This document shows positions 6,863 through 17,176 of a stretch of 64,000 bases of DNA, piece by piece (position 1 is the stretch's first letter; every line of letters starts with the position of its first letter). Made by a program: the position numbers and the translations under genes. The DNA comes from an uncultured Pseudomonadales bacterium (GTDB lineage: Bacteria > Patescibacteriota > Microgenomatia > UBA1400 > PJMF01): the NCBI GenBank assembly GCA_964645645.1, contig CAZYBC010000003.1, forward strand, positions 13,369 to 77,368. Direction: 5' to 3'. The notes below the pieces were generated by a model, which saw only the letters and a program-made list of their open reading frames with translations, did not search any database and was not told the origin of the DNA.

Positions 6863-8110
6863 ATGCTTTATAATAGCTTTATGCTTAATGATTTACTCTA
6901 TTATTTAAAACGTCCTTATCATTTTTTTAAGACTGGACTTTTATCAGCTTTACCAGCCCAATTAAAATATCGATTTCCAGCTCGCAAACTTAAAATTTTA
7001 ATGATTACTGGAACAGATGGCAAAACTACTTCTTCAACTCTCTTATATTATATACTCAAGACAGCTAATAAAAAGGTCGGTTTAATTTCTACAGTTAACG
7101 CTCAAATTGGGGATGAACAACTAGATACTGGTTTACACGTCACTACCCCAGAGCCACCAATGTTAGCCAAAATGATGGCTAAAATGGTTAAAGCTCATTT
7201 GGAATATCTAGTATTGGAATTTACTTCTCATGCTGCCTATCAATATCGCAATTGGGGTATCAAAGCTTTTTTAGCTGGTTTAACCAATATTCACTATGAA
7301 CATTTAGATTACCATCTCAATTATGAAAACTATCTCCAAGCCAAAGCTCTAATTTTAAGTCAACCTAAAACTGTTGTTCTTAACCAAGATGATAGTTCAT
7401 ATAATAAAATGTTAAAATTTTTAAACAAAGAACGGCAAACTATCTTAACTTATAGCCAAAATGATTCATTGCCTAAAATCATTAATCAAGCAATTGAGGC
7501 TAGATTCCCCGAAAATTACAATCAGATGAATGCCCGTTTAGTTTATACCATGGCTAAACAACTAGAGATTGCTGACCAAGATATTGCTCAAGCTATTAAA
7601 ACTTTTCCTGGTGTACCTGGCAGATTACAGAAAGTAACTAATAAACGTGGCTACAAAATATATGTTGATTTTGCTCATACTTCGCAAGGTGTAGAGGCTG
7701 TTTTAACTGCTCTACGTCAACAAATAAAAAGAGATAAATCAACGGGCAGGCTGATTGTCTTACTTGGTTGTGCGGGTTTAAGAGACAAAGAAAAACGGCC
7801 TGTGATTGGTAAATTGGCTACCCAATTAGCTGATTATGCCGTCTTTACCGCCGATGACCCTCGCGTTGAAGGAGTCTGGTCCATTATTCGTCAGATGAAA
7901 GAACAACTAACTGAAGGTCATGATAAAGTAATTTCTATTGCTGATCGTGAACAAGCCATTGATTTTGTTATTAACAACTTAGCTAAAAAAGGTGACGTTT
8001 TAGCTTTCTTAGGTAAGGGTCCTGAAAAAAGTTTAGCCTTAGCTAATAAAGAAATGCCTTGGGATGAAATCAATATTATTCAGCAAAAATTAAATAAAAC
8101 TAAACAATAA
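6863..8110 (+). CDS. Mur ligase family protein (MurE-like, short form)
   Basis: ITGTDGKTT P-loop and DFAHT motif. 415 aa, so it lacks the usual N-terminal domain. Confidence 0.6.
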   Translation: MLYNSFMLNDLLYYLKRPYHFFKTGLLSALPAQLKYRFPARKLKILMITGTDGKTTSSTLLYYILKTANKKVGLISTVNAQIGDEQLDTGLHVTTPEPPMLAKMMAKMVKAHLEYLVLEFTSHAAYQYRNWGIKAFLAGLTNIHYEHLDYHLNYENYLQAKALILSQPKTVVLNQDDSSYNKMLKFLNKERQTILTYSQNDSLPKIINQAIEARFPENYNQMNARLVYTMAKQLEIADQDIAQAIKTFPGVPGRLQKVTNKRGYKIYVDFAHTSQGVEAVLTALRQQIKRDKSTGRLIVLLGCAGLRDKEKRPVIGKLATQLADYAVFTADDPRVEGVWSIIRQMKEQLTEGHDKVISIADREQAIDFVINNLAKKGDVLAFLGKGPEKSLALANKEMPWDEINIIQQKLNKTKQ

Positions 8111-8118
8111 CTTAACTT

Positions 8119-9567
8119 ATGTCTTATTATTCTTGGCCTCAAGCCCGCACTAATTTATTAACTTTTCAACATTTTTATCTAGTTGGAATCAAGGGCGTCG
8201 CCATGACTTCTTTGGCCCAATGCCTCTTAGATGCCAATAAAAAAGTGAGCGGTTGTGATGTGGCTGAAGAATTTGTCACTCAACCATTATTGAATCAATT
8301 AGCTTTAAAGATTGAAACAGGCTTTGACCACCCCTTACCTGAACAAACTGATTGTTTAATTTATACTAGCGCCCATCAAGCTGAACTTAATCCCATGGTG
8401 CAACAAGCTAAAAAACGCGGTTTGGCAATTTTTTCTCAGGCTGAAGCCTTAGCCAGTTTGTTTAATCAAAAGCAAGGTATTGCTGTATGTGGAGTGGGCG
8501 GGAAGTCAACTGTCTCAGCTATGCTCAGTTTTATTTTAGAAAAAACCAATAAAAAACCTTCTTTCAGTGTGGGAGTAGGGGAAATTATTGGTTTAGATAG
8601 AACTGGAGTATGGCGCCAAAATAGTGACATTTTTGTAGCTGAAGCTGACGAATATGTGATTAACCCTCAAGCTAGAAATAATGGAGAAGAAATTATTCCA
8701 CGCTTTGCTTTTTTACAACCCAGTACCATTATTTGTACTAATCTAAAATTTGATCATCCTGATGTTTATGAAAATTTAGAACATACTAAAAAAGTTTTTT
8801 ATCAATTTTTTACTCAGCTTAAACCCAATGGCAAATTAGTTTTTAATGCTGACAATGCTGATTTATTAGAACTGGCTCAACAATTGCAACAAGAACGCCC
8901 TGACTTAAAATTAGTCAGTTTTGCCAGTCAAAATTCTCAAGCTGATTTTTATTTACAAGATTATCAAGTGGCAGAAGCTACTAGCCTAAGCAATTTTCAA
9001 TTCCAAAATCAAAGTTACCAATTAAAACTGAAAATTCCTGGCCAATTTAATATGCTTAATGCCTTAGCGGCTCTGGCCAGTTTAGATTTTAAAACTGAAA
9101 ATTTAACTGCTCTAGAAAATTTCGCTTCTACTAAACGACGCTTTGAATTTATCGGCCAAAAAAATGGCATCTATTATTACGACGACTACGCTCACCATCC
9201 TAGCGAAGTGGCAGCGGTGATTACAGCTTTACAACAATGGCATCCTCAACAAAGAATTGTAGTAGCTTTTCAATCACACACCTTTTCACGCACCAAACAA
9301 CTCTTTGATCAATTTGTGGAAGCTTTTAAAAATGCTCCAGAAGTAGTAATGATTGATATCTTTCCTAGTGCCAGAGAAGCTTTTGATGCCAGTGTTAGCA
9401 GTGATTTGCTGTGCGAAAAAATTAGTCAAACTTATCCACAGATTAAGTGCCAAAATTTAAAAAACACAGAAAATTTGGCCAAGTTTTGTAAAACTGAGCT
9501 AAAACAAGGTGATGTCTTTATCACAATTGGGGCTGGAGATATTTATTTAGTTCATGATTTAATATAA
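8119..9567 (+). CDS. murC: UDP-N-acetylmuramate--L-alanine ligase-like Mur ligase
   Basis: N-terminal GIKGVAMTSLAQ Rossmann motif, GVGGKST P-loop and DDYAHHPSEV motif typical of MurC. Confidence 0.65.
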   Translation: MSYYSWPQARTNLLTFQHFYLVGIKGVAMTSLAQCLLDANKKVSGCDVAEEFVTQPLLNQLALKIETGFDHPLPEQTDCLIYTSAHQAELNPMVQQAKKRGLAIFSQAEALASLFNQKQGIAVCGVGGKSTVSAMLSFILEKTNKKPSFSVGVGEIIGLDRTGVWRQNSDIFVAEADEYVINPQARNNGEEIIPRFAFLQPSTIICTNLKFDHPDVYENLEHTKKVFYQFFTQLKPNGKLVFNADNADLLELAQQLQQERPDLKLVSFASQNSQADFYLQDYQVAEATSLSNFQFQNQSYQLKLKIPGQFNMLNALAALASLDFKTENLTALENFASTKRRFEFIGQKNGIYYYDDYAHHPSEVAAVITALQQWHPQQRIVVAFQSHTFSRTKQLFDQFVEAFKNAPEVVMIDIFPSAREAFDASVSSDLLCEKISQTYPQIKCQNLKNTENLAKFCKTELKQGDVFITIGAGDIYLVHDLI

Positions 9568-9624
9568 AATAATGTTATAATTTGCTTTGTTAAAAAAGCT
9601 GTTTAAAATTAAAATAAAACTTTT

Positions 9625-9708
9625 GCCTCTGTGGCGGAATTGGCAGACGCGCGAGACTTAAAATCTCGTGATCGCAAGATCGTGTGGGTTCGACCCCCTC
9701 CGGAGGCA
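9625..9708 (+). tRNA. tRNA-Leu (anticodon TAA)
   Basis: Cloverleaf readable by eye: acceptor GCCTCTG/CGGAGGC, anticodon stem CGAGA/TCTCG with loop CTTAAAA, long variable arm, and T-loop GGTTCGACCCC. Confidence 0.8.
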
Positions 9709-9721
9709 CTTGATCATCATT

Positions 9722-10033
9722 ATGGTAAAAAAAGTAATTTTGATTTTTGGGATAATCATTGTTTTATTTATCACTATTTTAAAATTAAATTTATTGAGAG
9801 TAGAAATTTCACCTGGAGCTTATTTTTTTAAAATTCCACTCATAAAATTATTTCTTTTAATCAAAACTTCAGATAAAGCAAATCAAAAAAATGAATTTGG
9901 ATATCTAACTGATTATTTAAAAGCTGATGGTTTTGAACCATATGACCAATTGGGTTGTTTAATTAAATATAAAAAAGCAGCCAAAACTAAAAATTATAAC
10001 TGTACCGACATTAAAACTATTAGGTTATACTAG
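9722..10033 (+). CDS. small membrane-anchored hypothetical protein (103 aa)
   Basis: ATG just after tRNA-Leu with a strongly hydrophobic N-terminus (VILIFGIIIVLFITIL). The longer tracked ORFs 9631/9668 start inside the tRNA and are rejected. Confidence 0.25.
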   Translation: MVKKVILIFGIIIVLFITILKLNLLRVEISPGAYFFKIPLIKLFLLIKTSDKANQKNEFGYLTDYLKADGFEPYDQLGCLIKYKKAAKTKNYNCTDIKTIRLY

Positions 10034-10052
10034 ACTTATTGAAAATTAAAAT

Positions 10053-10126
10053 CGGGGAATAGCTCAGATGGCTAGAGCGCACGGTTTGGGACCGTGAGGC
10101 CGCAGGTTCGAGTCCTGTTTCCCCGA
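10053..10126 (+). tRNA. tRNA-Pro (anticodon TGG)
   Basis: Acceptor CGGGGAA/TTCCCCG, D-loop AGCTCAGATGGCTAGAGC, anticodon stem CACGG/CCGTG with loop TTTGGGA, and T-loop GGTTCGAGTCC. Confidence 0.8.
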
Positions 10127-10147
10127 CAACTTCAGCTAGCGTAACGT

Positions 10148-11245
10148 TTACAAAGATTTAGAGGCTATTAAAAAATCTTCATAGCCTCTTTTTCTCAAAA
10201 AATCAGTATATCCGTTGTAATCTTTGACGATGATATTTGTTTTAACCTGAGGTATATCCTGGAACCGTGGAATCAACTTAGTCGCCTCCTCCTTATTACT
10301 GGAAATAATTTCTAATGTAAGCAGTCCTTGCAAATTTTCCTTCATGAGATCAAGTAAATACTTATCTTGTGCTCTCCAACCAACAACAAGAATTCTATCC
10401 ACCTTTTTAATTTCATTGATGAGCACTTTAATATGTGCTGGCGGGCAGACACTTTTTGCTTTTGAAGCGATAGGAACCGCTATAGCAGGCAAATAATACA
10501 ACCAAGAATCACCATCAAACTGATTATTTTTACGCTCTCTGTAAGCTTCAAGGCTAAATTTTTCTTTAAAATAATCAAAGTCTCTGATAATATTGGGATA
10601 TACTTCTTGGCTATTATATTTCTGATACAGTTTTTGCCCACCAGATACAAAGAATTCATACACATCTTTTTTTTGAAAATCTATTTCTGGCTTGTATCTC
10701 CAATTATGAGCTCCATGGATTTTTATTACTTTAATATTGCCAGAAACGTAGCTATTTATATCTTTACTTGAATTTATCTCTTTGATGTTTTTTTCTAAAA
10801 GAGTATCGTAGTTAAAATTTACAAATAAGGCTTTTCCGACTCTATTGTTGATTTCATTGAGTAAATGGTTATGGTTATTAGTATGTCGATAAAATCTGTT
10901 GGAAACATTACTAAAAAGTTCTGCTAGATAAAAACGCAGTGCAATTATTTGTGGATAACTCCTTTCTGGGAATTGTATTTCTAATTCAGATAAGTACTTT
11001 TCAAAATCAAAAGGGTCGTCACTATCTGTGATATTAATGATAGCTGAAGCTAGTGGTTTAACATGTTCATAATTTCCTATAATTTCCAAAAATCTTGCAA
11101 CGTCAAAAATATTGTTGGTTAATGGCGGTCTCCAATTATTTAAGTCGTATTGATTAGCCCCACTGAAACGTCCTATCTTTTGGAAATCATAAGACGCTCC
11201 AGCCCCGAGGATAATTAATGGATATGCCATAGATTTTAACTCCAA
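10148..11245 (-). CDS. SIR2_2-like (ThsA-type SIR2/DHS-like NAD-binding) domain protein
   Basis: N-terminal IILGAGAS motif, FNYDTLLE (TNYD-like) motif and IKIHGAHNW (HG catalytic-His region), spaced as in SIR2_2/ThsA domains. C-terminal ~180 aa unassigned. Confidence 0.55.
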   Translation of the reverse strand: MELKSMAYPLIILGAGASYDFQKIGRFSGANQYDLNNWRPPLTNNIFDVARFLEIIGNYEHVKPLASAIINITDSDDPFDFEKYLSELEIQFPERSYPQIIALRFYLAELFSNVSNRFYRHTNNHNHLLNEINNRVGKALFVNFNYDTLLEKNIKEINSSKDINSYVSGNIKVIKIHGAHNWRYKPEIDFQKKDVYEFFVSGGQKLYQKYNSQEVYPNIIRDFDYFKEKFSLEAYRERKNNQFDGDSWLYYLPAIAVPIASKAKSVCPPAHIKVLINEIKKVDRILVVGWRAQDKYLLDLMKENLQGLLTLEIISSNKEEATKLIPRFQDIPQVKTNIIVKDYNGYTDFLRKRGYEDFLIASKSL

Positions 11246-11755
11246 TTACCATATAATACGCTAAGAATATATCATTTACACTAGTATCCACATATCTAAT
11301 GCTAACAATGACTTTTTTGAGTGCCTAGAAAAAATTTGAAGAGATATAACTACCTTTGAATTTTTAATGCGTTGTGCAATTGCCAAAAAAAACAAAAATA
11401 GGGATACATAATGAAAAAAGTTGATGATAATAAAGCATAAAAAAAGTTTAGATTGACCTAATCTAAGCTTGTTTTACATTTCTAGTAAAAACGCTACAAG
11501 TTATGGGATTATTAATCTGGAAACAAGTTTTCATTCCATAGATCAGACACGAATTTTTTTCCTAACTTAACTTCCATTAACTCTTAACTATTTCAAATTA
11601 ACGAGATCCACTAATTTGTCATCTTTTTGTCATAATTTATTGGTATTATTATATAAATACCACTAAACTATTTTGATCTATTTATAAACACTCAAATTGT
11701 GGTTATATTTGGTGTTTATTCGTTTCACAGATCAGGATAAAATAGACTAATATAT

Positions 11756-14700
11756 ATGAACCTCTTCAACAAAAAACTTTTAGCCCAACATCTAGTTAAA
11801 TATAATTTTCCTAACGGTCAACAATTAGAAGATATCCAAAAAATCCTATCCGGTTGGCAAAAAGCTCTAAAAGACAGCAATCTTGATCGTACTAAAGAAA
11901 CTAGTATTCAAGGTCAATTCTTAACTAAATTTTTTGAAACTATTCTTGGATACGACACGCAAACATCTGGCAAAGAACTTTGGCATTTAAACCAAGAACC
12001 TAAAACCGAAGTTGATGCACAAGAGGCTGATGGAGCATTAGGCTTTTTTACCAAAAATTCAAGTAAAGTTTTAGCAGTCATTGAACTTAAAGATGCAAAA
12101 ACTTCTCTAGACAAAAAACAATCTGGCAGAATCGGTAAACTCACGCCAGTTGAACAAGCTTTTCAATATCTTAATAAATTTGATGGCTGTAAGTGGGCAA
12201 TTGTTGCAAACTTTAGAGAGATTAGAATTTACAGCAAACTTCGAGGCCAAGGTTTCTATGAAAAATTTGATATTATTAGCCTGACAGAAGAACCTGAATT
12301 TAAACGTTTTTATTACATTTTTAATAAAAATAATCTTATTAATGAAGGTAAAATATCAGTTACTGAATCTTTAGCTGCTGATACTACTGTCCAAGAAGAA
12401 AATATCACCAAAAAATTCTATGAGCAGTACAAAGAAATTAGACTTAAAGTTCTTAATCATTTATTTGAATACAATCCACAGGTTGATCGCTTAGTGCTAG
12501 TAGAAAAAACTCAAAAATTATTAGATAGATTATTGTTTACTTTAGTCTGTGAAGACTCAACCACCCTTTTACCAACACACATTGTTAAAACCACCTATGA
12601 TAGAAGTTTTCAATCCTTTGCTCTATCTGGCAACAATCAGCGAGTCTGGCTAAACTTTAAAGGCTTGTTTAAAGCTATTGATGAAGGTGTTAAGGATATC
12701 GATCCGCCAATCAATAAATATAACGGTGGTTTATTCAAAAATGATGAAATTTTAGATAATTTGATTATTAAAGATGACATCTGGAAAGAAATTATCAAGC
12801 TTACTCAATATGATTTTGAAAGCGATCTAAACGTCAATGTTCTGGGTCATATCTTTGAACAAAGTATTAGTGACCTAGAAGAAATCAAAGCTCAAGTTGA
12901 GGGTGAAGCGGTTGATAAGAAAAAATCATTACGAAAAAAACAAGGTATTTTTTATACTCCAGAATACATTACCAAATTTATTGTTGAAAATACTGTGGGT
13001 AAATACCTAGAAAAAAATCCTGATAAACTCAAAACTATCAAAATTCTTGATCCTGCTTGCGGTAGTGGAGCATTTTTAAATCAAGCTCATTCATTCTTGC
13101 TCAATCAATACAAGGTTAGAGATGAAGAAAAGCAACTAGAATTACAAAAGCAAGGGAAAGCCACTAGTTTATTTGATCTAAGTTGGGTAGAAAATGATAA
13201 AACTATTTTACTTAATAATTTATATGGAGTTGACTTAAGCCCTGAGAGTGTCGAAATTACCAAGCTTGCTCTGTGGCTGAAAACTGCCAAGGCTACTGAA
13301 CCACTGCAAAATCTAGACAATAATATTAAGTGTGGTAACTCACTGATTGATGATCCAGAAATTGCTGGTGATAAAGCATTTAATTGGAATACTGAATTTA
13401 AAGACATTATGGATGAAGGCGGATTTGATGTGATTATTGGGAATCCACCGTATGTGTACGCTAGGGAAAAAATTTCTTTTAACGAAAAGGAATATTTCAA
13501 CTCTGAATATTTATCAGCTGAATATCAGCTCAACACTTTTGTTTTATTTATAGAAAAATCAATTAAACTCTTGAAAGATAAAGGATTGCTTGGTTTTATT
13601 ATTCCCAATAGTTTACTAAAAATTGGTTCAATTTCAAAATTAAGAAAATACATTTTAGACAATACATCTGTCAATATTATAGTAAGTTTGTCTGGGTATT
13701 CATTTGAGAGTGTTAATGTGGAAACCGTAATACTTGTGGTCCAAAAAAACTCAAAAAATTCATATGTAGATGTAAAGAAAATTGAATCAGATACTGATAT
13801 ATATTCACAAGAATCATTTTCTGTTAATAGCTCAAGATGGAAAACGAATCAAAACTATGAATTTGATATTTTCTCATCAGATTCCGACTTAAAGCTGATC
13901 AGTAAAATTCAAACAAGCTCTCAAACTCTTGAGAGCTTGTTTAACGTAAAGGCTGGACTTCAAGCATACGAAAAAGGCAAAGGAAATCCAGTTCAAAATG
14001 AAGAAGATGTTAGGAATAGACCATATGACTTCCAAACTAAGGTTGATGAAAATACCCATAAATATTTAGAAGGAAAAAATATATCAAGATATCTTATCCA
14101 AGGATTTAGTTACTGGCTTAAATACGGTGATAACTTAGCTGCACCAAGATCATTCGATATTTTTTGTAGACCAAGAATATTGATCAGGGAAATAACAAAT
14201 AACCAACCATACTGCTTTCATGCATCCTATGTTGAAGAAACTTTTTTAAATAATAGAAGCATCATCAATGTGTTGGATCCCCAAAATGATAGGCAGAAAT
14301 TGCTGAATTTATTGGCAATAATCAATAGCAAACTAGCATCATGGTATTTCGTTAAAACTAATCCAAAAGCCAATAGATCAATGTTTCCAAAGCTGATTCT
14401 TAGAGATCTAGCAAATTTTCCCATTACTTTACCCAAAAACAAGATAAATCTGGATAAAGTAGAAAAATTAATAATCAAAATTTCAAAATTAAATACAAAA
14501 CTGTTCACTGAAAAAGGTAGATTGAATGAAATTATTGTTTCAAAATTTAAGTTAAAAAATAAAACAAACTTAATCAATTTTTACCAACTCGGTTGGAACG
14601 GATTCATTGCAGAACTTGAAAAACAAAAAGTTAAACTTGATGTCAGTGAACAAGATAAACTTAATAAGTGGTTCAACAAAGTTGGAAAGTCTTTATTGGA

Positions 14701-14803
14701 TCTTGAACAAGAAATTAGTGATCTAGACAGACAAATTGATCAATTTGTCTATGAGCTTTATGACTTAACCAAAGAAGAAATAAAATTAATAGAAAAAGAA
14801 TAA
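11756..14803 (+). CDS. Type IIG/IIL restriction-modification enzyme (gamma-class N6-adenine MTase with target-recognition C-terminus; putative N-terminal nuclease)
   Basis: 1015-aa single polypeptide. SAM-binding motif I LDPACGSGAFL and catalytic motif IV VIIGNPPY. N-terminal region has an IELKDAK stretch compatible with PD-ExK. No BREX partners nearby. Confidence 0.8.
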   Translation: MNLFNKKLLAQHLVKYNFPNGQQLEDIQKILSGWQKALKDSNLDRTKETSIQGQFLTKFFETILGYDTQTSGKELWHLNQEPKTEVDAQEADGALGFFTKNSSKVLAVIELKDAKTSLDKKQSGRIGKLTPVEQAFQYLNKFDGCKWAIVANFREIRIYSKLRGQGFYEKFDIISLTEEPEFKRFYYIFNKNNLINEGKISVTESLAADTTVQEENITKKFYEQYKEIRLKVLNHLFEYNPQVDRLVLVEKTQKLLDRLLFTLVCEDSTTLLPTHIVKTTYDRSFQSFALSGNNQRVWLNFKGLFKAIDEGVKDIDPPINKYNGGLFKNDEILDNLIIKDDIWKEIIKLTQYDFESDLNVNVLGHIFEQSISDLEEIKAQVEGEAVDKKKSLRKKQGIFYTPEYITKFIVENTVGKYLEKNPDKLKTIKILDPACGSGAFLNQAHSFLLNQYKVRDEEKQLELQKQGKATSLFDLSWVENDKTILLNNLYGVDLSPESVEITKLALWLKTAKATEPLQNLDNNIKCGNSLIDDPEIAGDKAFNWNTEFKDIMDEGGFDVIIGNPPYVYAREKISFNEKEYFNSEYLSAEYQLNTFVLFIEKSIKLLKDKGLLGFIIPNSLLKIGSISKLRKYILDNTSVNIIVSLSGYSFESVNVETVILVVQKNSKNSYVDVKKIESDTDIYSQESFSVNSSRWKTNQNYEFDIFSSDSDLKLISKIQTSSQTLESLFNVKAGLQAYEKGKGNPVQNEEDVRNRPYDFQTKVDENTHKYLEGKNISRYLIQGFSYWLKYGDNLAAPRSFDIFCRPRILIREITNNQPYCFHASYVEETFLNNRSIINVLDPQNDRQKLLNLLAIINSKLASWYFVKTNPKANRSMFPKLILRDLANFPITLPKNKINLDKVEKLIIKISKLNTKLFTEKGRLNEIIVSKFKLKNKTNLINFYQLGWNGFIAELEKQKVKLDVSEQDKLNKWFNKVGKSLLDLEQEISDLDRQIDQFVYELYDLTKEEIKLIEKE

Positions 14804-14815
14804 TAATAACTTAAA

Positions 14816-15586
14816 ATGACACAAACAAAAATAGCAGAGCTACAAGAAGAATTAAAAAACATCAAAAGTTATTTTATTGCTGATGGAAGATATTCTTTAG
14901 ATGGATTAGTAAAGTGGTCAGCAAAAACAGCTGCTTTTTTTGAAACCGTTGGAGTTCCTCAAAATGTTATTGATCATTTTTTAATAATTTTTAACATAAA
15001 TTATCTTAAAGAAAAAGAAATATCACCTCTAGAAAGAGATCCAAGAGATGGAGCTTTCGTTTACTTTAAAAAATTTTCAGAAGATCGATTAATGCCTCTT
15101 TGGATAGCCATTGAATATGCAGAAATCAAAATAAAGTATATGCAGTTTGAGGAATCATTGGTTCCAAGATGGTTGCTATCAACACTTTCAAATAAAAAAG
15201 GGGTTGAACACATTTCTTCTGCACTACAGGCTTTGGATCAAGCATTTGAAAATAGATCAGCAAAAGACATTTTGAATCACTCCAATTCATTGTTGGAGAG
15301 CATACTTAACCTAGATAGTAGACTTACTACTAAAGATCTAGGTCCAAAACTACAAACTTTATCAGAAGATAGAGATGGAAAAATTCGTTATAAGTTTGGT
15401 GGTCTTAGTTGTGATTTTTTTAGAGGTATTAATGCCTCAAGACTGATAAGAAATGAAAGAGTAGTGCATTCAAATATAGGAATGAATCATAACATCCCAT
15501 TTATTGTTGGAGCATCATCAGCTTATCTAGTTGTTACCCTGCTTGAAGCAACGTTGTCTGCTGGAAAACTAGTTAAGTTAACATAA
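14816..15586 (+). CDS. hypothetical protein co-operonic with the RM enzyme (256 aa)
   Basis: Starts 12 nt after the RM stop on the same strand; no recognisable motif. Confidence 0.45.
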   Translation: MTQTKIAELQEELKNIKSYFIADGRYSLDGLVKWSAKTAAFFETVGVPQNVIDHFLIIFNINYLKEKEISPLERDPRDGAFVYFKKFSEDRLMPLWIAIEYAEIKIKYMQFEESLVPRWLLSTLSNKKGVEHISSALQALDQAFENRSAKDILNHSNSLLESILNLDSRLTTKDLGPKLQTLSEDRDGKIRYKFGGLSCDFFRGINASRLIRNERVVHSNIGMNHNIPFIVGASSAYLVVTLLEATLSAGKLVKLT

Positions 15587-15735
15587 CTCTCACCTTGCTT
15601 GCTTAACACTAGCTAGGTTATATTTTTGTGATTTTGGTCTTGAATCTGTATTAAAAACGAAGAATTCTATAGGTTTTTCTATCTGAAAGAATGTTATAAT
15701 TTCATTCCAAAGGTCCGACAAAAGTTTATAAAAAA

Positions 15736-15781: not shown

Positions 15782-17176
15782 TTACCGATTTAATAAGAAA
15801 TAAAGTTTTCCAGTCGCTAAAGGTGTAGCCCAATTAGTATAGTTACCAACAATATAAGAGGCTTTAACTTTAGGATTATTATCTCTAGTAAGCATAAAAC
15901 GATTAATGTTAGCATCTGCTTTAATAATTGATTCTGTATAATCAATATTATTAGTATAAGGATTGTAAATTATCTCTTTAATTTCATGTCTAAAAGAGGA
16001 GTAAAGAGCAATTTTACCGTCAGCTAAAGTTTCTGAATCCCATAAAACAATCCTATCAGCTTTAGCTTCTCGATAATTTAAGACTGTTTTTTTCCATTCT
16101 CCATTAAGATATCGTAAATTATAAAGTTGATAAAATTGTTGACCATTAGCATCAGTGATTAAATCAGTTGCAAAAATTATGGGAGCTCCTTCAGCGGTAA
16201 ATCCTAAACATAGAGTAAGATTAGAGCCAGCTGTACTCATAGTTGGTTTTTTTTCAACCAGGGTAAGAGCCATCTTAGGCCCAACTTTTTTACCATCAAT
16301 CGTCTCTAATTTATCTGTTTTAGTATTAAAAATTCCAAAAAAATTATGGCCGTAATAAGCACCATAATTACCCCTTAAACTCCACAAAATAGCTAATTTA
16401 TGCCTTTCTTTAGGCATGGGTAAAATAGAAGCCACAGAAGTGTTATTCCAATTAATAGTTTCATTATTGAATTGTTCTTCTCTCCTTTGATAAGTAATGT
16501 ACTGAATAGGTTTACTCCAAGCCTTAGTGTCATAATCATATTTGACATAATATTGAGTCCCTTTTACATAATAAGCTTGATCTTTTTTACCTTCTGGATA
16601 AAGAGTATCGCGATAAAAGTAATACAACGCATTATTTCCTGGCATAGCTACTCCATAAGTAGCTCTAAAAGTATCTGGAATTTCCACTAAATTAGAACCG
16701 TCAAAACTACTGAAATGTAAATTGTGATTAGCATGGTAAGATTCCATGACTGCGAATTCATCTTGATCTAATCTGAAAAGCTGAGGATAATTATGTGAAT
16801 CACTTTTTACAGCTGGTTCAAAAATTCGTCTTTCTGTAACTTTTTCAGTTTTATGGTCAAAAGAGGCTAAATAAGGAGCTGTTTCTGAAAGGCCATTAGG
16901 CATTTTACCAGCAGGGTAAACAATGTAAGTTCTATTGGTATTATTGTCATATATCATTGTTCCCCAACCCATATTTCTACCAGGGGCACCAACTACTTCA
17001 GTGATATTAGAAGCAATTAAAACTGAACGATATCTATCTACTGCTGCTGAAGCATCTTCTGGATTGACGTTTTTTTTGCTGTTTAACATGGCCACACTGG
17101 CCAACAAACTCACTCCAGCAATTAAGATAAAACAAATGCTAATTATGGTGATTAAAAATTTTCTGTTTTTGTACAT
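15782..17176 (-). CDS. membrane-anchored extracytoplasmic hypothetical protein (464 aa)
   Basis: Single N-terminal transmembrane helix (FLITIISICFILIAGVSLLASVAML) followed by a large Tyr/Asn/Gly/Thr-rich soluble domain; no catalytic motif recognised. Confidence 0.5.
   Translation of the reverse strand: MYKNRKFLITIISICFILIAGVSLLASVAMLNSKKNVNPEDASAAVDRYRSVLIASNITEVVGAPGRNMGWGTMIYDNNTNRTYIVYPAGKMPNGLSETAPYLASFDHKTEKVTERRIFEPAVKSDSHNYPQLFRLDQDEFAVMESYHANHNLHFSSFDGSNLVEIPDTFRATYGVAMPGNNALYYFYRDTLYPEGKKDQAYYVKGTQYYVKYDYDTKAWSKPIQYITYQRREEQFNNETINWNNTSVASILPMPKERHKLAILWSLRGNYGAYYGHNFFGIFNTKTDKLETIDGKKVGPKMALTLVEKKPTMSTAGSNLTLCLGFTAEGAPIIFATDLITDANGQQFYQLYNLRYLNGEWKKTVLNYREAKADRIVLWDSETLADGKIALYSSFRHEIKEIIYNPYTNNIDYTESIIKADANINRFMLTRDNNPKVKASYIVGNYTNWATPLATGKLYFLLNR

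What the first reader, a model, noticed from the sequence alone, without database searches (positions are those of the whole stretch)
10148..11245. Stand-alone SIR2_2 (ThsA-type) protein beside tRNA-Pro and a Type IIG RM enzyme
A 365-aa protein carries the three hallmark blocks of defence-type SIR2 NADases (GAGAS, NYDTLLE, IHG..W) but lacks the SLOG, HerA, Argonaute or other partner domains of known SIR2 systems. Its C-terminal ~180 aa has an unassigned, Rossmann-like look (RILVVGWRAQDKYLLDLM). It sits directly after tRNA-Pro, a classic island insertion site, and is divergently adjacent to a large RM gene, which suggests a compact and possibly new SIR2-based defence configuration.
Basis: partly seen in the sequence, partly recalled or inferred. 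Interest (0 to 1): 0.65.

Follow-up and report, generated by a model that had tools for sequence, protein, structure and literature searches.

The report
Stand-alone SIR2 enzyme linked to restriction systems
This gene encodes a compact, single-domain SIR2-type (probably NAD-destroying) enzyme from a large uncharacterised family, and its closest relatives sit inside restriction-modification operons, which suggests a back-up "cell-suicide" arm wired to DNA restriction.

Summary
The ORF is real: 10148-11245(-), most likely starting at the ATG at 11230, giving 360 aa. It is one SIR2 fold from end to end (AF2 pLDDT 94, pTM 0.92). Foldseek aligns about 360 columns to the SIR2 subunits of SIR2-HerA and to sirtuins. 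The "unassigned Rossmann-like C-terminus" is the second half of the split SIR2 Rossmann fold plus a family-specific insert.

The window protein misses the Pfam SIR2_2 threshold (16.3 vs 24.5 bits) and hits no PADLOC or NCBIfam model. Its family does hit: 52/60 members match SIR2_2. The family comprises about 2,100 clusters at 50% identity, all stand-alone proteins of about 340 aa. The invariant N140/D142/H172 align with the catalytic N163/D165/H212 of PsSIR2.

It is not ThsA-type: no SLOG domain, no TIR partner. No att repeat or integrase supports an island at tRNA-Pro.

The main result is context. Among relatives at least 33% identical, 9/14 informative loci are RM-adjacent, rising to 11/18 with later look-ups. 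Ten loci read hsdS-SIR2-hsdR with junctions of -14 to +2 nt, and two lie directly downstream of Type IIG genes. Relatives below 28% identity show no enrichment (2/42).

Best reading: an RM-coupled NAD-depleting abortive-infection effector in a PrrC-like slot. That is a new variant of known kinds. Its function is untested.

The parts
10148..11230 (-). CDS of the stand-alone SIR2-like protein (360 aa from the ATG at 11230; the TTG at 11245 gives 365 aa)
   Evidence: ORF. P0001, 360 aa, is 100% identical. GGAG SD upstream of the ATG. AF2 model pLDDT 94.1, pTM 0.92. Full-length Foldseek matches to SIR2 folds.
11192..11206 (-). GAGAS glycine-rich NAD-binding loop after strand beta1 (G9-S13)
   Evidence: G9, A10 and G11 are invariant; A12 and S13 are >=90% conserved in 60 homologs.
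10793..10813 (-). NYDTLLE motif (N140-E146), holding the predicted catalytic Asn and Asp
   Evidence: N140, Y141 and D142 are invariant. They align to TTNYD of PsSIR2 (8w9l), i.e. N163/D165, named as putative catalytic residues in 10.1101/2023.11.13.566805.
10700..10723 (-). KIHGAHNW motif (K170-W177), holding the predicted catalytic His172
   Evidence: K170, H172 and G173 are invariant; W177 is >=90% conserved. Aligns to KLHGSINW of PsSIR2, i.e. H212.
10433..10489 (-). Family-specific conserved block P248...P253...K257...C262-P263..H266, between the variable insert and beta4
   Evidence: P248 and P253 are invariant; K257, C262, P263 and H266 are >=90% conserved. Role unknown.
10364..10396 (-).
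   Evidence: G284 is invariant and W285 >=90% conserved. In register with 'ILItCGYSYKDQH' of PsSIR2. DSSP strand 279-283 in the model.
11231..11755 (.). 525-bp divergent intergenic region shared by the SIR2-like and RM genes
   Evidence: No ORF >=40 aa. Only consensus-level promoter matches, no more than in shuffles.
11756..14803 (+). Type IIG restriction-modification enzyme (1015 aa), the putative functional partner
   Evidence: Pfam Eco57I, N6_Mtase, MmeI_Mtase, TaqI_C and weak MmeI_N. PADLOC REase_MTase_IIG 6.6e-123. Full-length homolog (30% id over ~1000 aa) of the IIG gene that directly precedes the SIR2-like gene in L001.
14816..15586 (+). Orphan 256-aa ORF, 12 nt downstream of the RM gene (possibly part of the RM cassette; unknown)
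   Evidence: No Pfam, PADLOC or NCBIfam hit. Only itself among 5.8 billion proteins.
10053..10127 (+). tRNA-Pro(tgg), convergent neighbour (context only)
   Evidence: ARAGORN. No duplicated 3' end downstream.

Best explanation
The gene encodes a stand-alone, single-domain SIR2-superfamily enzyme. It belongs to a large family that no profile library has curated.

Shown:
- The whole chain is one SIR2 fold. A Rossmann core (beta1-beta6) is split by a helical small domain (about residues 25-130) and a variable insert (about 185-250).
- The Asn/Asp/His catalytic constellation of defence NADases is invariant.
- There is no zinc ribbon and no sensor domain.
- In this protein's own clade the gene is an accessory of restriction-modification systems. 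It is either translationally coupled to hsdR (order hsdM-x-hsdS-SIR2-hsdR) or abuts a Type IIG RM gene. In the window it abuts one divergently.

Inferred:
- It consumes NAD+ and acts as an abortive-infection effector.
- Its activity is gated by the restriction enzyme it travels with. One option is release when the RM complex is inhibited by phage anti-restriction proteins (PrrC-like guard). The other is activation when the restriction motor/nuclease engages unmodified DNA, analogous to SIR2 activation by the HerA translocase or by pAgo.
- Either way it would add an NAD-depletion layer behind restriction.
For: Fold:
- AF2 pLDDT 94.1, pTM 0.92.
- Foldseek probability 1.0 over about 360 columns to SIR2-HerA SIR2 subunits (8wld, 8w9l, 8su9) and to sirtuins.
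- The family profile hits 8w9l at E = 2.8e-7.

Family:
- 52/60 members hit PF13289.
- 46/60 hit PADLOC generic defence SIR2 models.
- 2,095 representatives at E <= 1e-30, and the top 150 are all full-length proteins of 314-406 aa.

Catalytic residues:
- N140, D142 and H172 are invariant.
- They align to PsSIR2 N163/D165/H212.

RM linkage:
- Type I-embedded loci: L003, L165, L170, L008, L010, L087, L089, L093, L024, L173, L174.
- SIR2 stop to hsdR start is -14 to +2 nt in 10/10 junctions.
- The HsdR partners are only 29-73% identical to one another.
- IIG gene followed by the SIR2-like gene in L001 (21 nt) and L028 (overlap). A second IIG family recurs within 6 kb in L166 and L022.
- Enrichment is 9/14 for relatives >=33% identical, against a 2-5% background (P about 1e-9 to 1e-12).

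Accessory character:
- The family is rare and patchy: 186 relatives found in the pattern-limited scan of one genome for each of 185,579 species.

Precedents:
- PrrC occupies the same hsdS-hsdR slot and guards its RM system (PMC12707154; Payne et al.).
- AbiH is a single-gene sirtuin-like Abi.
- SIR2 alone is autoinhibited and is activated by a DNA-translocase partner.
Against: - No biochemical or phage data exist for any member.
- The window protein itself is below the Pfam threshold and hits no defence model.
- In the window the gene is divergent from the RM gene, not co-transcribed with it.
- Close relatives also occur without adjacent RM genes (L168, L175, L172).
- Relatives below 28% identity show no RM enrichment (2/42). 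They sit next to housekeeping genes, for example lepA in four Acidobacteria. The protein can therefore presumably work without an RM partner in cis.
- Co-inheritance with HsdR is only weakly supported (Pearson 0.60, Spearman 0.23).
- No physical interaction could be modelled.
- Other genes also occupy these RM operons (NYN, KilA-N, SduA_C), so embedding may reflect a cargo hotspot rather than functional coupling.
Confidence: 0.55

Rival explanations
1. Autonomous single-gene abortive-infection NADase (AbiH-like). It senses infection by itself or through a phage protein, and it merely rides in RM operons and defence islands because these are cargo hotspots. There is no functional coupling to restriction.
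For: - Stand-alone architecture is the conserved state across about 2,100 clusters.
- Many members lack RM neighbours, including close ones (L168, L175) and nearly all distant ones.
- Other unrelated genes are embedded in the same operons (NYN, KilA-N, SduA_C).
- Embedded systems such as TgvAB and BrxU act independently of their host RM system.
- In the window the gene has its own divergent transcription unit.
Against: - The position is fixed immediately upstream of hsdR, with overlapping or 1-2-nt junctions in 10/10 Type I loci, while other cargo varies in position.
- The association recurs with at least three HsdR lineages and two IIG families.
- The protein has no recognisable sensor domain.
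- Solved stand-alone SIR2 subunits are autoinhibited and need a partner.
Confidence: 0.3
2. A regulator or modifier of the restriction enzyme rather than a suicide effector. It would be a SIR2-type ADP-ribosyltransferase or deacylase acting on HsdR, on the IIG enzyme or on DNA, for example to control restriction alleviation.
For: - Translational coupling specifically with the R subunit.
- The SIR2 superfamily includes protein-modifying enzymes (established knowledge; reviewed).
Against: - There is no zinc ribbon (a single Cys in the protein) and no PF02146 hit.
- The motifs (TxNYD, KxHG) and the nearest solved relatives are those of defence NADases.
- Many family members have no RM enzyme nearby to regulate.
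Confidence: 0.08
3. A housekeeping NAD-dependent enzyme unrelated to defence, whose RM adjacency is incidental.
For: Distant relatives sit beside lepA, recA, response regulators and assorted enzymes, with few defence hits.
Against: - Distribution is patchy and rare.
- RM adjacency is strongly enriched in the gene's own clade.
- Transposases, recombinases, TIR, Shedu-like and PLD genes occur nearby in several loci.
- There is no conserved metabolic neighbourhood.
Confidence: 0.05
4. A ThsA-type Thoeris effector, as labelled by the first reader, activated by a TIR-made signal.
For: - It shares the SIR2_2-type motifs.
- One close relative (L166/L167) has a TIR-domain gene 93 bp upstream.
Against: - There is no SLOG or Macro ligand-binding domain; the whole chain is SIR2.
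- There is no TIR gene in the window.
- The PADLOC ThsA model is not hit by this protein, and only 3/60 family members hit it weakly.
- The TIR neighbour is of the CAP12/Pycsar effector type and occurs in one lineage only.
Confidence: 0.02

Closest known systems
SIR2 subunit of SIR2-HerA (Nezha / GAO_19) systems, e.g. PsSIR2 (PDB 8w9l, 8wld) and E. coli Sir2 (8su9)
   Same: - Nearest solved relatives by sequence profile (E = 2.8e-7) and by fold.
- Similar size (about 360-400 aa) and a bilobed SIR2 with a helical small domain.
- Identical N-x-D...H-G catalytic constellation.
- A separate SIR2 polypeptide encoded next to a DNA-motor ATPase.
   Different: - No HerA gene at any locus examined.
- The recurrent neighbour is HsdR or a Type IIG RM enzyme.
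- Only remote similarity (11-16% identity, TM about 0.45).
- A family-specific insert and a P..P..K..CP..H block.
PrrC / RloC (anticodon nucleases embedded in Type I RM loci)
   Same: - Same genetic slot, between hsdS and hsdR of a Type I operon.
- An accessory, non-RM enzyme with toxic potential, consistent with an RM-guardian, second-line abortive role.
   Different: - Completely different protein: PrrC is an ABC-ATPase plus HEPN tRNase, this is a SIR2 fold.
- The predicted target is NAD+, not tRNA.
- Activation by RM inhibition is untested here.
AbiH (Lactococcus single-gene abortive infection protein, PF14253)
   Same: A stand-alone protein of roughly similar size that is predicted to be sirtuin-like and confers Abi as a single gene.
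   Different: - Not the same family. The window protein does not hit the Pfam or PADLOC AbiH models, and only 2/60 members touch PF14253, at E about 0.005.
- AbiH is associated with ICEs, not with RM operons.
ThsA (Thoeris), DSR1/DSR2, and SIR2-APAZ/pAgo (SPARSA)
   Same: A SIR2_2-type NADase catalytic core. These are defence effectors that deplete NAD+.
   Different: All of these carry or pair with a dedicated sensor: SLOG plus TIR, a large C-terminal domain, or APAZ plus pAgo. None is present here.
'Embedded' defence genes in Type I RM/BREX/DISARM (Payne et al. 2024; TgvAB in V. cholerae)
   Same: The same genomic principle: extra defence genes nested inside multi-gene RM operons.
   Different: SIR2 is not mentioned in the main text of that survey (supplements not checked). 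Here the embedded gene keeps a fixed position, translationally coupled to hsdR.

Membership tests
SIR2 superfamily / Pfam SIR2_2 (PF13289) | Profile match at or above the Pfam gathering score | tested here: inconclusive
   The window protein scores 16.3 bits against a cut-off of 24.5, matching residues 140-183 only. However, 52/60 homologs match PF13289 at E <= 0.01, best 2.4e-11.
SIR2 superfamily / Pfam SIR2_2 (PF13289) | SIR2 fold: split Rossmann core plus small domain | tested here: met
   AF2 pLDDT 94, pTM 0.92. Foldseek probability 1.0, with about 360 aligned columns to SIR2-HerA SIR2 subunits and to sirtuins, and to viral sirtuins.
SIR2 superfamily / Pfam SIR2_2 (PF13289) | Catalytic Asn/Asp and His (N-x-D ... 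H-G) plus the GAGxS NAD loop | tested here: met
   G9/A10/G11, N140/Y141/D142 and H172/G173 are invariant in 60 sequences. They align to PsSIR2 N163/D165/H212.
SIR2 superfamily / Pfam SIR2_2 (PF13289) | NAD+ hydrolase activity | not testable with these tools
   Requires biochemistry.
ThsA (Thoeris effector) | C-terminal SLOG (or Macro) signal-binding domain | tested here: not met
   The whole 360-aa chain is one SIR2 fold. No SLOG hit.
ThsA (Thoeris effector) | Adjacent TIR-domain ThsB gene | tested here: not met
   No TIR domain in the window neighbours. The PADLOC ThsA model is not hit.
SIR2-HerA (GAO_19 / Nezha) | Adjacent HerA-type ATPase gene | tested here: not met
   None in the window. 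No recurrent HerA-like neighbour in 80 genome loci.
DSR1/DSR2 | Large (~1000 aa) protein with a C-terminal phage-protein sensor domain | tested here: not met
   360 aa, single domain. The window protein does not hit the Dsr2 model, and only 5/60 members hit it weakly.
SPARSA (SIR2-APAZ + short pAgo) | APAZ fusion and an adjacent pAgo | tested here: not met
   No APAZ or PIWI in the protein or its neighbours. Aga_SIR2 models are hit only weakly by family members.
AbiH (PF14253) | Match to the AbiH profile | tested here: not met
   No hit for the window protein in Pfam or PADLOC. 2/60 members hit at E about 0.005.
Canonical sirtuin deacylases (PF02146) | Cys4 zinc ribbon in the small domain; PF02146 match | tested here: not met
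   The protein has a single Cys (sequence). No PF02146 hit.
RM-embedded accessory effectors (PrrC-like 'RM guardians') | Gene nested in or abutting an RM operon, recurrently across relatives | tested here: met
   Eleven Type I-embedded and three IIG-adjacent loci. 9/14 relatives at >=33% identity are RM-adjacent, against a 2-5% background. In the window the arrangement is divergent adjacency, not an operon.
RM-embedded accessory effectors (PrrC-like 'RM guardians') | Activity silenced by the RM complex and triggered by its inhibition | not testable with these tools
   Needs genetics or biochemistry.

The most novel reading that the evidence does not exclude
The SIR2-like protein is a true accessory subunit of restriction enzymes. 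It binds HsdR, or the HsdR_N/MmeI_N-type nuclease module of Type IIG enzymes. It then converts either restriction-enzyme engagement with unmodified DNA, or the enzyme's blockade by anti-restriction proteins, into NAD+ depletion. A classical RM enzyme would then be the non-self sensor of an NADase abortive-infection system, a 'SIR2-HsdR' analogue of SIR2-HerA and SIR2-pAgo. It would be concentrated in the tiny genomes of CPR/Patescibacteria, where RM is the dominant defence.
Probability: 0.25. Interest if true: 0.8.

Novelty: new variant of a known kind. Interest (0 to 1): 0.55.

Why it matters
SIR2 NADases are among the commonest suicide effectors in bacterial immunity. Each characterised one depends on a dedicated sensor: a TIR signal, HerA, pAgo, or a tail-tube-binding domain.

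This family has no sensor. It is large (about 2,100 clusters at 50% identity) and is absent from PADLOC 2.0, NCBIfam and the solved structures. In one clade it is translationally coupled to the R subunit of Type I restriction enzymes, or attached to Type IIG enzymes.

If the coupling is functional, it would be a second, mechanistically distinct example after PrrC of a toxic effector wired to an RM enzyme. It would show how restriction, a first-line defence, is backed by NAD depletion, a last-line one. It would also add to the sparse knowledge of immunity in CPR bacteria.

If the gene is merely embedded cargo, it still defines a new single-gene SIR2 defence candidate comparable to AbiH.

Tried and rejected
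1. ThsA/Thoeris assignment: rejected. No SLOG domain, TIR partner or model hit.
2. Separate C-terminal domain: rejected. It is beta4-beta6 of the SIR2 Rossmann fold plus an insert.
3. Integrative island at tRNA-Pro: no att-like repeat, no integrase, and GC essentially flat at 0.29-0.33 vs 0.31-0.38. Of the 15 relatives' loci scanned, only 2 have tRNAs nearby, and of different kinds.
4. A universal partner gene across the broad family: none. All-vs-all clustering of neighbours gave only HsdR, HsdS, MTase and a lepA synteny block.
5. Defence context for distant relatives: Pfam and PADLOC scans of 100 immediate neighbours showed mostly housekeeping genes and transposases with only scattered defence hits.
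6. Phage or plasmid carriage: no relatives in IMG/VR contigs, GenBank phages or PLSDB plasmids. BFVD gave only generic viral sirtuins.
7. Mirror-tree co-evolution with HsdR: weak (Pearson 0.60, Spearman 0.23).
8. Subfamily-specific positions in RM-linked members (e.g. L30, N138, I171, Y246, D289): present, but not separable from phylogeny.
11. The intergenic region shows no small ORF or above-chance promoter or terminator signal.
12. Literature searches found no description of an RM-embedded stand-alone SIR2.
Full report
**1. Observation**

The ORF 10148-11245(-) exists, 365 aa from a TTG. The better start is the ATG at 11230. A GGAG lies about 9 nt upstream of it on the coding strand, and an NCBI-called 360-aa protein is 100% identical (P0001). 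Residue numbers below count from that Met (M6 numbering).

- tRNA-Pro(tgg) is at 10053-10127(+). It ends 20 nt from the stop codon and is convergent with the gene. tRNA-Leu is at 9625-9709.
- The gene at 11756-14803(+) is an intact Type IIG RM enzyme: Eco57I 4.7e-44, N6_Mtase, MmeI_Mtase, TaqI_C, PADLOC REase_MTase_IIG 6.6e-123. It is divergent from the SIR2-like gene across 525 bp.
G9/A10/G11/D15, N140/Y141/D142 and K170/H172/G173 are invariant.

**2. What the protein is**

- Pfam SIR2_2 gives 16.3 bits against a gathering score of 24.5, and only over residues 140-183.
- Neither PADLOC nor NCBIfam gives a meaningful hit.
- phmmer against PDB finds nothing.

Family-level evidence settles the question.
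- The protein has 147 homologs at E <= 1e-3 in the word-indexed search.
- In the exhaustive search of 1.84 billion representatives there are 7,669 hits at E <= 1e-3 and 2,095 at E <= 1e-30. The top 150 are all full-length proteins of 314-406 aa.
- 52 of 60 members individually match PF13289. 46 of 60 weakly match PADLOC's generic defence SIR2 models, best 2.4e-10.
- The family profile hits the SIR2 subunit of SIR2-HerA (8w9l, E = 2.8e-7; also 8j4u).
- In that alignment the family's N-Y-D and H-G align with N163/D165 and H212 of PsSIR2. The structural paper names these as the putative catalytic residues and reports that the catalytic-dead mutant loses protection.

**3. Structure**

An AlphaFold2 model built from the alignment is very confident: pLDDT 94.1, pTM 0.92, no low-confidence segment.
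- Foldseek against PDB gives probability 1.0 over about 350-430 aligned columns. The matches are SIR2-HerA SIR2 subunits (8wld_K, 8w9l_A, 8su9_D; TMq 0.43-0.46) and classical sirtuins (SIRT2, Hst2, Sir2Af, CobB). BFVD returns only generic viral sirtuins.
- The secondary-structure order is that of a split SIR2 Rossmann fold:
  - beta1 (4-8, followed by GAGAS)
  - a helical small domain (25-130)
  - beta2 (134-138, followed by NYD)
  - beta3 (166-169, followed by HG)
  - a variable hairpin/helix insert (173-250)
  - beta4 (279-283, RILVV-GW), then beta5 (305-309) and beta6 (333-335)

**4. Context in the window**

Beyond the accessory segment the neighbours are housekeeping genes: GH15, GH57, a glycosyltransferase, two Mur ligases, RecQ and a histidine kinase. 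The segment itself holds the SIR2-like gene, the IIG RM gene, an orphan 256-aa ORF and an unknown 464-aa ORF.
- No HerA, TIR, SLOG, APAZ or pAgo gene is present.
- The island-at-tRNA-Pro idea has no direct support. There is no duplicate of the tRNA 3' end, no integrase, and GC is 0.29-0.33 against 0.31-0.38 outside.
- Only 2 of the 15 relatives' loci scanned have tRNAs nearby, and of other kinds.

**5. Context in relatives (the key result)**

Look-ups of the closest homologs gave the following arrangements.

| Protein / locus | Arrangement |
|---|---|
| P0012 / L001 (Levybacteria, 54% id) | Type IIG RM gene, then SIR2-like 21 nt downstream on the same strand |
| P0016 / L003 (Woesebacteria) | hsdM-NYN-hsdS-SIR2-hsdR |
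| P0002 / L165 | hsdM-hsdS-DUF1080-x-SIR2-hsdR |
| P0009 / L170 | hsdM-x-hsdS-SduA_C-SIR2-hsdR |
| P0034 / L173 | hsdM-x-x-hsdS-SIR2-hsdR |
| P0039 / L174 | hsdM-KilA-N-hsdS-SIR2-hsdR |
| P0004 / L166, L167 | CAP12-type TIR gene 93 bp upstream; an IIG gene about 6 kb away |
| P0017 / L168, P0058 / L175 | solo |
| P0027 / L172 | mobile or defence-island setting (recombinase, PLD, Shedu-like) |

- Profile scans of 172 fetched loci added L008, L010, L087, L089, L093 and L024 as Type I-embedded and L028 as IIG-then-SIR2 with overlapping genes.
- In all ten scorable Type I loci the SIR2 stop and the hsdR start are -14 to +2 nt apart (TAAnATG or ATGA overlaps). That is the signature of translational coupling. 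The HsdR partners are only 29-73% identical to each other, so several RM lineages are involved.
- The window's IIG enzyme is a full-length homolog (30% over about 1,000 aa) of the L001 enzyme. A second IIG family recurs at L028, L166 and L022.

Direct RM adjacency, stratified by identity to the window protein among loci with adequate flanks:

| Identity to window protein | RM-adjacent loci |
|---|---|
| >=45% | 5/7 |
| 33-45% | 4/7 |
| 28-33% | 2/11 |
| <28% | 2/42 |

- The background was measured on the loci's own distal flanks. It is about 4 RM genes per Mb, giving about 2.4% chance adjacency.
- Against that, 9/14 for the >=33% tier gives P about 4e-12, or 3e-9 with a generous 5% background. 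Adding L172-L175 makes it 11/18.
- These P values ignore shared ancestry. The diversity of RM partners argues for several independent or very old associations.

**6. The broader family**

Relatives at 23-30% identity come from Acidobacteria, Nitrospira, Chloroflexi, Actinobacteria and Bathyarchaeia. They share no partner.
- Their immediate neighbours are heterogeneous: lepA in four syntenic Acidobacteria with 3-6 nt gaps, response regulators, IS110/IS66 transposases and recA. Defence hits are only scattered.
- The family is rare. The pattern-limited scan of one genome for each of 185,579 species found 186 relatives.
- No relative was found on viral contigs, GenBank phages or PLSDB plasmids.
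- RM linkage is thus a property of the window protein's clade, largely CPR/Patescibacteria, and not of the whole family.

**7. Mechanism**

Shown:
- a single-domain SIR2 fold with an intact catalytic constellation;
- no sensor domain;
- recurrent, positionally fixed and translationally coupled association with restriction genes in this clade.

Inferred:
- NAD+ consumption, by analogy with every characterised SIR2_2-type defence enzyme;
- an abortive-infection role;
- gating by the restriction enzyme.

Two sub-models fit. In the PrrC-like guard, the effector sits in the same hsdS-hsdR slot, is silenced by the RM complex, and is released by anti-restriction proteins. In the sensor-effector relay, the DNA motor/nuclease activates SIR2 on engaging non-self DNA. 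That parallels HerA activating an otherwise autoinhibited SIR2 and pAgo activating SIR2-APAZ.

The main rival is an autonomous AbiH-like single-gene Abi that merely occupies a cargo hotspot. Supporting it are the solo members, the other cargo in the same operons, and the divergent arrangement in the window itself. Independent action of embedded systems has precedent in TgvAB and BrxU. I put the RM-coupled effector at about 0.55, autonomous Abi at about 0.30, an RM regulator or modifier at about 0.08, a housekeeping enzyme at about 0.05 and ThsA-type at about 0.02.

**8. Comparison with known systems, and novelty**

The protein works most like a defence SIR2 NADase. It is placed like PrrC.
- It is not a member of ThsA, DSR, SIR2-HerA, SPARSA, AbiH or the canonical sirtuins. 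Each has a defining feature that was tested here and not met (see the membership table).
- Full-text searches found the concept of embedded defence genes in Type I RM and PrrC as its archetype (Payne et al. 2024). They also found AbiH as a sirtuin-like single-gene Abi.
- They found no description of a stand-alone SIR2 coupled to hsdR or to Type IIG enzymes.
- I therefore class it as a new variant of known kinds. Interest is moderate to good (0.55): a concrete, testable hypothesis, but no experimental support and weaker local evidence in this particular window.

Noticed in passing
window 14816-15586 (+): A 256-aa ORF starts 12 nt after the Type IIG RM stop codon, so it is apparently operonic. 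It is a complete orphan: no Pfam, PADLOC or NCBIfam hit, and only itself among 5.8 billion proteins.
   Followed up: partly
window 15782-17176 (-): A 464-aa ORF with a hydrophobic N-terminus and no convincing family hit. Its cluster at 90% identity holds only one other sequence. Together with the orphan ORF it completes the non-housekeeping segment between tRNA-Pro and RecQ.
   Followed up: no
window 10160-10195 (+): A terminator-like hairpin (AGAGGCTAT-N12-ATAGCCTCT followed by a T-run) lies just downstream of tRNA-Pro, inside the last codons of the convergent SIR2-like CDS. It may terminate both transcripts.
   Followed up: no
window 11529-11556 and 15700-15727; also 9562-9583 and 15681-15702: A 28-nt imperfect direct repeat (79%) brackets the RM-plus-orphan-ORF cassette. 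Next to its second copy lies a 22-nt promoter-like repeat (TGTTATAAT) that also occurs upstream of tRNA-Leu. This could be a cassette boundary, a shared promoter, or chance.
   Followed up: no
L003 5807-6559; L174 5004-5822; L170 6898-7953; L165 6468-7884; L173 4445-5767: The Type I RM operons of relatives carry a second, variable cargo slot around hsdS (between hsdM and hsdS, or between hsdS and the SIR2-like gene). It holds NYN, KilA-N, SduA_C (Shedu-like), DUF1080 and unknown genes. HsdM often has an N-terminal MerR/HTH_17 fusion. This looks like a hotspot of embedded genes in CPR Type I systems.
   Followed up: partly
L016, L031, L041, L078 (about 7800-11030 in each): In four Acidobacteria (Bryobacterales/Terriglobia) a distant family member follows lepA on the same strand with a 3-6 nt gap. 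This is a conserved housekeeping-type synteny that does not fit a defence role.
   Followed up: partly
L166/L167 6820-7908 and 8001-9071: A CAP12/Pycsar-type TIR-domain protein is encoded 93 bp upstream of a 59%-identical SIR2-like gene. A GIY-YIG gene, tRNAs and a serine recombinase lie nearby. The TIR-plus-SIR2 pairing is superficially Thoeris-like but lacks a SLOG domain.
   Followed up: no
window 9631-10033 (+): Two mechanical ORFs (66 and 121 aa) overlap tRNA-Leu and the tRNA-Leu/tRNA-Pro spacer. They are almost certainly not genes.
   Followed up: no
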